A stretch of DNA of 64,000 nucleotides from Escherichia phage LF82-1: sequence record PV648359. One strand, written 5' to 3'. Under the pieces are notes generated by a model, which worked only from the letters and a program-made list of their open reading frames with translations, was not told the origin of the DNA and made no database searches. Shown in pieces: positions 42,467-42,558 of the stretch. The first letter of the stretch is position 1, and each line of letters begins with the position of its first letter. The position numbers were made by a program, and so were the translations under genes.

Positions 42467-42558
42467 AATATTCTCTTCAGTAGATTCCTAGGGCACTATT
42501 ACTAAAGACCATATAATCTATCATCTTATGTGTAATAGTGCCTCAGGCGATTCAGGAT

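What the first reader, a model, noticed from the sequence alone, without database searches (positions are those of the whole stretch)
42491..42542. 12-bp perfect inverted repeat with a 28-nt AT-rich loop between rIIA.1 and the putative glycosyltransferase
gggcactattac (42491..42502) and gtaatagtgccc (42531..42542) flank a loop containing catataatctatcat. This is longer than the usual terminator hairpins in this window and is not followed by a U-run; it may be an RNA processing site, a regulatory stem-loop or a protein-binding palindrome.
Basis: seen in the sequence. Interest (0 to 1): 0.35.

Follow-up and report, generated by a model that had tools for sequence, protein, structure and literature searches.

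The report
Conserved RNA hairpin upstream of rIIA.1
A 61-base imperfect palindrome between the arabinosyltransferase-like gene and rIIA.1 of an RB69-type phage is real and evolves about five times slower than neighbouring silent sites; it is most likely an ordinary hairpin in the messenger RNA between two genes, not a promoter or a terminator.

Summary
The inverted repeat exists, but it is 11 perfect base pairs (42492-42502 / 42532-42542) around a 29-nt loop, not 12 and 28. It is the core of a 61-nt quasi-palindrome (42487-42547). On the transcribed (-) strand this folds into a long bulged hairpin (dG -27.2 kcal/mol, z -6.5). The window is an RB69-like Mosigvirus. The element fills most of the 92-nt gap between ORF003c (putative hmC-arabinosyltransferase) and rIIA.1. 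It is single-copy, present in all 154 Mosigvirus records that match this junction, and was not found in any other phage record. Diversity in the gap is 0.026-0.028, against 0.125-0.167 at third-codon and four-fold sites of gp39, ORF003c and rIIA. Variable sites cluster at unpaired positions (P = 0.01). No pair shows a change on both sides. The site scores far below the phage's own early promoters, has no MotA box or late promoter, no U-run and no Rfam match. Best reading: a cis-acting hairpin in the mRNA between two genes (stability or processing boundary, perhaps stop-to-start proximity). The exact role is inferred. This is an ordinary kind of element, so interest is low to moderate.

The parts
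42487..42547 (-). Whole 61-nt quasi-palindrome. On the - strand RNA it forms a bulged hairpin: 4 bp, an A.C mismatch, 11 bp, a 4x2 internal loop, 5 bp, a 1x1 mismatch, 3 bp and a 5-nt terminal loop.
   Evidence: dG -27.2 kcal/mol, z -6.5. Main-stem pair probability is at least 0.98 in contexts of 190-490 nt.
42532..42547 (-). 5' arm of the RNA hairpin (CCUGAGGCACUAUUAC). It is invariant in all 12 haplotypes seen.
42487..42502 (-). 3' arm of the RNA hairpin (GUAAUAGUGCCCUAGG). It carries all the stem substitutions seen in relatives: RB69 U->C; ESCO47 C->U; ST2 and L016 G->C; and the AV clade CU->UC, which gives a perfect 16-bp stem.
42505..42527 (-). Upper helix (AAGAU.AUA / UAU.GUCUU) and 5-nt terminal loop GAUUA (42514-42518). 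All 8 of its pairs are invariant.
42559..42561 (-). Stop codon (UAA) of the ORF003c-like gene, with 11 nt between it and the base of the hairpin.
42473..42478 (-). Weak Shine-Dalgarno-like GAAGAG of rIIA.1, with 8 nt between it and the base of the hairpin. It is not sequestered by the hairpin.
   Evidence: invariant.
42266..42466 (-). rIIA.1 (66 aa), the gene downstream of the hairpin.
   Evidence: phrog_1683.
42559..43659 (-). Homologue of RB69 ORF003c (366 aa), the putative hmC-arabinosyltransferase and the gene upstream of the hairpin.
   Evidence: PMC6024577.

Best explanation
The element is a cis-acting RNA hairpin in the polycistronic message that runs gp39(+60) -> ORF003c -> rIIA.1 -> rIIA -> rIIB on the - strand.

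Proposed mechanism. Once RNA polymerase has passed the ORF003c stop codon, 61 of the 92 untranslated nucleotides fold into a stable bulged hairpin of about 24 pairs. The hairpin has no U-tract, so it does not release the polymerase. I propose that it acts after transcription in three ways.

- It marks a boundary between the two cistrons. It would block 3'->5' exonucleases, or offer a double-stranded target next to AU-rich single-stranded flanks for RNase III or RNase E. The arabinosyltransferase message and the rII messages could then have different lifetimes.
- It keeps the untranslated gap structured.
- It folds away most of the spacer. Only about 34 single-stranded nucleotides then separate the ORF003c stop codon from the rIIA.1 start codon, whose Shine-Dalgarno-like sequence is weak.

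Shown here: the fold, its robustness, its position outside both reading frames, purifying selection on the gap, and the absence of promoter and terminator signals.

Inferred: that the RNA rather than the DNA is the active form, and which post-transcriptional step is affected.
For: - Fold. dG is -27.2 kcal/mol and z is -6.5 for the 61 nt. The 106-nt context gives z = -3.8. The main stem has pair probability of at least 0.98 in three context sizes.
- Placement. The hairpin sits between a stop codon (11 nt between them) and the rIIA.1 Shine-Dalgarno-like sequence (8 nt between them), on the strand that carries 92 of the 102 ORFs I called in the window. No early promoter scores well between about 46.9 kb and 38.3 kb, so rIIA.1 must be reached by read-through.
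- Conservation. 7 of 92 gap positions vary (pi 0.026-0.028), against 89 of 191 four-fold sites (pi 0.167) and third-position pi of 0.125-0.148 in gp39, ORF003c and rIIA. BLAST identity bands suggest that about 110 of the 154 phage records carry the identical 61-mer.
- Pattern of change. 6 of 15 unpaired positions vary, against 4 of 46 paired positions (Fisher P = 0.01). All 8 pairs of the upper helix and 11 of 16 lower positions never vary. Three changes create pairs: C.A to U-A in ST2 and PhAPEC2; C.A to C-G in ESCO47; and A.C plus G.U to A-U plus G-C in the AV clade, where dG reaches -34.
- Context in other genera. In Dhakavirus, Gaprivervirus and Kanagawavirus the rIIA.1 start overlaps the end of the upstream ORF. 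Coupling to the upstream cistron therefore looks like the usual arrangement.
Against: - No pair shows a change on both sides, and the shuffle control has no power at this level of divergence.
- Two lineages carry stem-weakening changes: RB69 has A.C, and ST2 and L016 have C.C.
- Each strand has two wobble pairs where the other has two mismatches. The single substitutions split one to one between strands. Base-pair chemistry therefore does not pick the RNA strand.
- Third positions of rIIA.1 are also unusually conserved (pi 0.046). Part of the low diversity may be regional, from a sweep or recombination, rather than selection on the hairpin.
- The mismatch-correcting changes could arise by template switching within a quasi-palindrome, which is a mutational bias and not selection.
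- I found no transcript-end or cleavage data for RB69-type phages.
Confidence: 0.45

Rival explanations
1. The element is a DNA-level relic at a module boundary. The slot between gp39 and rIIA.1 holds different genes in different genera. The quasi-palindrome would be a leftover of the event that placed ORF003c there, or a sequence kept palindromic by template-switch correction, with no present function. Its low diversity would come from a regional sweep or recombination.
For: - The slot holds unrelated small ORFs in other genera.
- ORF003c's next relatives are at 43% identity in Acinetobacter phages, in a different gene context.
- The diversity trough also covers rIIA.1 third positions.
- The adjacent double change in the AV clade looks like one templated event.
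- Pairing is equally good on both strands.
Against: - The gap is 5-6 times less diverse than silent sites on both sides. In the nine-haplotype set it is also less variable than rIIA.1 third positions: 7 of 92 against 13 of 66.
- The unpaired flanks and the upper helix are conserved as well, which a neutral relic does not predict.
- No homologous sequence accompanies ORF003c homologues elsewhere.
- The JK45 duplication junction is not at the hairpin.
Confidence: 0.2
2. The element is a leaky transcriptional pause or attenuator. The hairpin would slow or partly stop RNA polymerase, or block Rho loading on the untranslated gap, and so set how much transcription reaches rIIA.1, rIIA and rIIB.
For: - The stable hairpin lies directly after a stop codon in a long unit fed by read-through.
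- It is longer than the window's ordinary terminators, which have 6-8 bp stems (7-8 bp in the UUCG-loop examples) followed by a U-run.
Against: - No U-run follows the hairpin on either strand, so the defining feature of an intrinsic terminator is missing.
- The rII genes have no promoter of their own nearby, so efficient termination here would silence them.
Confidence: 0.12
3. The element is a promoter, or a protein-binding DNA palindrome, with recognition elements in the 'loop'. Candidates are the TATAAT on the + strand at 42512-42517 and the ATTACA-N17-TATGGT on the - strand.
For: - A perfect TATAAT lies on the + strand.
- In this phage 9 of 29 early promoters have an inverted repeat bracketing the -10 hexamer. 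The two other 11-bp inverted repeats in the window are of that kind.
Against: - A weight matrix built from the window's 29 early promoters scores the site at -13 (- strand) and -8 (+ strand). Most of the 29 training promoters score 30-48.
- The consensus sigma-70 scan makes no call there.
- The gap has no MotA box and no TATAAATA.
- No acceptable -35 lies 16-18 nt upstream of the + strand TATAAT.
- The arm centres are 45 bp apart.
Confidence: 0.05

Closest known systems
Intercistronic stem-loops that stabilise or delimit segments of polycistronic mRNAs. Examples from my own knowledge: the RNase III sites between phage T7 early genes, and REP-type hairpins such as malE-malF.
   Same: A stable hairpin in an untranslated gap directly after a stop codon, with no U-tract. 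It forms about two helical turns of interrupted duplex (about 24 pairs) with an internal loop and AU-rich single-stranded flanks.
   Different: No cleavage or decay data exist for this element. It has no sequence relation to T7 sites or REP elements. It is single-copy and confined to one genus.
T4-type hairpins that mask translation starts (genes e, soc, 49 and I-TevI; reviewed in PMC3014915).
   Same: It is in the same phage group and is a long hairpin in a read-through transcript. Clear examples of the masking type occur in this window at 55300-55344 and 53468-53522.
   Different: In those hairpins the 3' arm covers the Shine-Dalgarno sequence or the AUG, and a promoter sits in or beside the 5' arm. 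Here the 3' arm ends 20 nt before the AUG, with 8 nt between it and the Shine-Dalgarno-like sequence. There is no promoter.
PeSL cassettes (promoter-early stem-loops) of T4-like phages (PMC4122927, PMC2839356).
   Same: A stem-loop in an intergenic gap of a variable region, next to a gene that differs between genera. The papers also describe degraded 'half' PeSLs that keep only a stem-loop.
   Different: A PeSL is a stem-loop just upstream of a sigma-70-like early promoter, followed by a Shine-Dalgarno sequence and a start codon. Here there is no promoter between the hairpin and the ATG. The stem is far longer than PeSL stems. The sequence is not repeated elsewhere in the window.
Hairpins that bring separated translation signals together: the T4 gene 38 and gene 26-25 junctions (cited in PMC3014915).
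   Same: A hairpin folds out spacer RNA, which shortens the effective distance between translation signals. Here it is the distance from the ORF003c stop codon to the rIIA.1 ribosome-binding site, 92 nt reduced to about 34 single-stranded nt.
   Different: In T4 the hairpin lies between the Shine-Dalgarno sequence and the AUG. Here it lies upstream of both. Coupling has not been tested.

Membership tests
Intrinsic (Rho-independent) terminator | A G+C-rich stem with a short loop, followed at once by a U-run. | tested here: not met
   The scan makes no call at the site. The sequence after the stem is CUAGGAAUCUACUG on the - strand and CGAUUCAGGAUUUACG on the + strand. The terminal structure is a long bulged hairpin, not a short loop.
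T4-type early promoter | A (G)TTTAC(A) -35 element, a 16-18 nt spacer and a TAnnnT -10 element, with an A-rich upstream region and, in this phage, CCTATCAA downstream. | tested here: not met
   A weight matrix from 29 window promoters gives best scores of -13 (- strand) and -8 (+ strand). Most of the 29 training promoters score 30-48.
PeSL (promoter-early stem-loop) cassette | A stem-loop directly upstream of a functional early promoter, then a Shine-Dalgarno sequence and the ATG. The motif recurs at many intergenic sites. | tested here: not met
   Definition from PMC4122927. There is no promoter downstream of the hairpin, and the arm sequence is unique in the window. A degraded 'half' PeSL cannot be excluded.
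MotA-dependent middle promoter or late promoter | A (a/t)(a/t)TGCTT(t/c)A box 11-13 nt upstream of TAnnnT, or TATAAATA. | tested here: not met
   The pattern scan finds none in 42467-42558. The nearest middle promoter is at 45566-45542. The nearest TATAAATA is at 42865, inside ORF003c.
T4-type translational masking hairpin | The 3' arm pairs with the Shine-Dalgarno sequence and/or the start codon of the downstream gene. | tested here: not met
   The 3' arm ends at 42487. The GAAGAG is at 42478-42473 and the AUG at 42466-42464, and both stay unpaired by the hairpin.
Any Rfam family (ribozymes, riboswitches, leaders, sRNAs) | A covariance-model match. | tested here: not met
   The only hit with E up to 10 in 42000-43000 is a chance snoRNA match elsewhere, at E = 4.3.
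RNase III processing site | About two turns of duplex RNA, often with an internal loop. | tested here: met
   The structure has 16 lower pair positions and 8 upper pairs, interrupted by a 4x2 internal loop. This is a shape criterion only.
RNase III processing site | Cleavage by RNase III in vivo or in vitro. | not testable with these tools
   I found no transcript-end data for RB69-type phages in the paper library.
Structured RNA supported by covariation | Compensatory changes on both sides of a pair across relatives. | tested here: inconclusive
   There are 0 pairs with changes on both sides among 12 haplotypes, which are all at least 95.7% identical. There are 2 one-sided changes that keep pairing, 2 that break it and 3 that create pairs.

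The most novel reading that the evidence does not exclude
The hairpin is a Mosigvirus-specific expression switch that arose when the arabinosyltransferase gene displaced the small ORF that in other genera overlaps, and is probably translationally coupled to, rIIA.1. It would serve either as a defined RNase III/RNase E processing site or as a device that brings the ORF003c stop codon next to the weak rIIA.1 ribosome-binding site. In either case it would set the ratio between the DNA-modification enzyme and the rII proteins.
Probability: 0.2. Interest if true: 0.4.

Novelty: new member of a known kind. Interest (0 to 1): 0.25.

Why it matters
If the hairpin is functional, it shows how a horizontally acquired DNA-modification gene was fitted into an old, tightly coupled operon (gp39 to rII) without its own promoter or terminator. 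It would also give a small, mutable handle for studying mRNA processing in RB69-type phages, which are used in phage therapy and in polymerase research. It does not open a new class of element. Its main practical value is for annotation: it is a conserved non-coding feature, not a promoter or a terminator.

Tried and rejected
- Promoter readings were rejected. These were the + strand TATAAT, the - strand ATTACA-N17-TATGGT, a MotA box and a late promoter. The grounds are the consensus scan, a weight matrix built from the phage's own promoters, and pattern scans.
- An intrinsic terminator was rejected because no U-run follows the stem.
- Rfam gave nothing.
- A repeated element was rejected because the arm is unique in the window and occurs at one place per phage record.
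- A small peptide was rejected. The 15-codon ORF on the - strand, starting in the upper helix, shows about 7 non-synonymous and 2 synonymous changes among haplotypes, by my reading.
- A replication-origin link was rejected. T4 oriA lies near soc, not near rII (PMC3016281).
- The idea that the hairpin travels with the glycosyltransferase gene was rejected. Acinetobacter-phage homologues have only an unrelated 6-bp hairpin downstream.
- I looked for an equivalent hairpin in other genera. The gp39-rIIA.1 gaps of PSD9, RZ, PEi20 and DCP80 hold unrelated short hairpins and promoters.
- I searched for more distant copies by protein (IMG/VR) and by an exact DNA anchor (metagenomes, IMG/VR). Only near-identical Mosigvirus contigs came back.
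- A literature search for RB69 transcript maps found nothing usable.

Full report
**What the window is**

The segment is 100% identical to Escherichia phage LF82-2 and 97% identical to RB69, so it belongs to the genus Mosigvirus. Around the finding all genes lie on the - strand:

- the fused gp39+60 topoisomerase subunit, 43702-45519
- a 366-aa homologue of RB69 ORF003c, 42559-43659
- rIIA.1, 42266-42466
- rIIA, 40040-42253

ORF003c is the proposed hmC-arabinosyltransferase of RB69 (PMC6024577).

**The observation**

- The perfect repeat is 11 bp: GGCACTATTAC at 42492-42502 and GTAATAGTGCC at 42532-42542, with 29 nt between them.
- The claimed twelfth pair is g42491 with t42543. It is a wobble on the + strand and an A.C mismatch on the - strand.
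- The repeat extends to 16-nt arms at 88% complementarity.
- The 29-nt 'loop' pairs with itself: AAGAU/GUCUU and AUA/UAU around a GAUUA loop.
- The object is therefore a 61-nt quasi-palindrome, 42487-42547.
- As RNA of the transcribed strand it folds with dG -27.2 kcal/mol and z = -6.5. The main stem keeps pair probability of at least 0.98 in contexts of 190, 290 and 490 nt.
- The + strand RNA and single-stranded DNA fold the same way, but less stably.

**Is it more than chance?**

An 11-bp perfect inverted repeat is not remarkable in 64 kb. Shuffles give a mean of 1.5 k-mer hits, and 63% of shuffles have at least one. However, the window has three such loci and all three lie upstream of genes in non-coding sequence. 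About 7% of the window falls outside my ORF set. That set overcalls one ORF across the 1590-1624 repeat, which lies in the promoter and leader upstream of an ATG. The other two repeats (1590-1624 and 47417-47461) bracket the -10 hexamer of early promoters.

**Distribution**

- BLAST at low stringency finds the junction in 154 phage records, all RB69-like and 95.7-100% identical. It finds it in no other phage record.
- Identity bands suggest that about 110 of these records carry the identical 61-mer.
- IMG/VR and metagenome scans added only near-identical contigs.
- In Dhakavirus, Gaprivervirus and Kanagawavirus the slot between gp39 and rIIA.1 holds other small ORFs. The last of these overlaps the rIIA.1 start.
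- ORF003c's next relatives (43% identity) are tandem genes in Acinetobacter T4-like phages, and no related hairpin follows them.

**Selection**

Two sequence sets were compared. 'Variable' means positions that differ among the haplotypes.

| Class of site | Variable | Diversity (pi) |
|---|---|---|
| 92-nt gap, nine distinct ORF003c-to-rIIA.1 sequences | 7 of 92 | 0.026 |
| Four-fold degenerate sites, same set | 89 of 191 | 0.167 |
| Gap, five sequences over 3.1 kb | 6 of 92 | 0.028 |
| Third positions of gp39, same five | 36 of 128 | 0.125 |
| Third positions of ORF003c, same five | 116 of 366 | 0.148 |
| Third positions of rIIA, same five | 130 of 430 | 0.147 |
| Third positions of rIIA.1, same five | 7 of 66 | 0.046 |

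The gap therefore evolves about as slowly as first and second codon positions. The caveat is that rIIA.1 third positions are also quiet, so part of the trough may be regional.

Within the hairpin, 12 haplotypes from 23 sequences were compared.

- 6 of 15 unpaired positions vary, against 4 of 46 paired positions (P = 0.01).
- The 5' arm and the whole upper helix never vary.
- No pair changes on both sides.
- Three changes turn mismatches into pairs: C.A to U-A in ST2 and PhAPEC2, and C.A to C-G in ESCO47.
- The third is an adjacent CU-to-UC change. It makes a perfect 16-bp stem in five Danish isolates, AV109, AV114, AV115, AV116 and AV118.
- These changes fit selection for pairing. They fit equally well the template-switch correction of quasi-palindromes described for T4 rII, which I cite from my own knowledge.

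**What it is not**

- It is not an intrinsic terminator, because no U-run follows it.
- It is not an early promoter. A weight matrix from the window's 29 early promoters scores it -13 (- strand) and -8 (+ strand), while most of the 29 training promoters score 30-48.
- It has no MotA box and no TATAAATA.
- It is not a masking hairpin, because the Shine-Dalgarno-like GAAGAG and the AUG lie outside it.
- It has no Rfam match.
- It is not a PeSL as defined, which is a stem-loop just upstream of an early promoter (PMC4122927).
- It is not near a known T4 replication origin.

**Most likely mechanism**

rIIA.1, rIIA and rIIB have no promoter of their own within several kilobases. They must be read through from the gp39 middle promoter at 45566-45542, or from the early promoter at 46887. 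The hairpin forms in that long message, in the only untranslated stretch between ORF003c and rIIA.1.

I take it to be a post-transcriptional boundary element. It would be a 3' barrier and/or a nuclease entry point that separates the fate of the transferase message from that of the rII message. It may also hold the ORF003c stop codon close to the weak rIIA.1 start region. In effect this would replace the overlapping stop-start arrangement seen in other genera.

The fold, its placement and its conservation are shown. The RNA-level action and the particular step affected are inferred. My confidence is about 0.45.

The rivals are a functionless relic at a module boundary (0.2), a U-less pause or attenuator (0.12), and a promoter or DNA-binding palindrome (0.05).

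**Verdict**

The feature is real, conserved and confined to one genus. It is of a familiar kind, so interest is low to moderate.

Noticed in passing
window 1590-1624, 47417-47461, 17258-17286, 37457-37485, 37718-37746, 38230-38258, 46859-46887, 7623-7651 (- strand): Many T4-type early promoters here carry a perfect inverted repeat that brackets the -10 hexamer: the 5' arm lies in the spacer and the 3' arm over the start region. 9 of 29 promoters have at least 6 bp, where 8.9% is expected from shuffled spacers. 8 of 29 have at least 7 bp, where 2.7% is expected. This differs from published PeSLs, in which the stem-loop lies upstream of the -35 element.
   Followed up: partly
window, about 29 sites on the - strand (for example 46859-46887 and 35148-35175): The early promoters share a conserved motif after the -10 hexamer (TAcTAT-agaCCTATCAAaac). 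It reaches into the first transcribed bases.
   Followed up: no
window 55300-55344, upstream of the 78-aa gene at 55063-55299: A late-promoter TATAAATA (55338-55331) sits in front of a 13-bp hairpin whose 3' arm covers the AUG and whose loop holds the Shine-Dalgarno sequence. The gene is Soc-like (phrog_1715, virion structural protein). This is the classic T4 arrangement that silences read-through transcripts.
   Followed up: partly
window 53468-53522: An early promoter whose -10 (TATGAT) lies in the 5' arm of a hairpin of about 16 predicted pairs. The 3' arm contains the AUG of a 59-aa ORF. Transcripts started here would lack the 5' arm, while read-through transcripts would be masked.
   Followed up: no
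L022 and L029 (phages AV115 and AV114), hairpin 3' arm; also AV109, AV116 and AV118: An adjacent double substitution (CCCTAGG to CCTCAGG) makes the 16-bp lower stem perfect. It removes one mismatch and one wobble at once. It looks like a single templated quasi-palindrome correction in one clade.
   Followed up: partly
L030 (Shigella phage JK45) 1402-1996: A 503-bp tandem duplication. The first 5 codons of rIIA.1 are fused to ORF003c codons from about 236 to 366, followed by a second, identical copy of the 92-nt gap with the hairpin. The two repeat copies differ at 11 of 503 positions.
   Followed up: partly
L022 (phage AV115) 1-358: A homing-endonuclease gene is annotated directly upstream of ORF003c. 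AV115 also has the most divergent ORF003c seen (95.4% amino-acid identity).
   Followed up: no
window 42230-42590: A local trough of diversity among Mosigvirus genomes covers the gap, all of rIIA.1 and the first bases of rIIA. rIIA.1 third-position pi is 0.046, against about 0.15 in the neighbouring genes. This could be a recent sweep or recombination tract, or an overlapping constraint.
   Followed up: no
window 45520-45582: Downstream of the gene before gp39 lies a UUCG-loop terminator (GGGCUUCGGCCC followed by U5). It is immediately followed by a good MotA-type middle promoter (TTTGCTTTA-N12-TAGAAT, 45566-45542) for gp39.
   Followed up: no
L014 and L015 (Acinetobacter phage vB_AbaM_PhT2 and a relative) 3001-5301: ORF003c homologues (43% identity) occur as a tandem pair of 372-aa genes. 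They lie downstream of thymidylate-synthase-family and NTP-transferase genes, which suggests a related hmC-sugar modification module.
   Followed up: no
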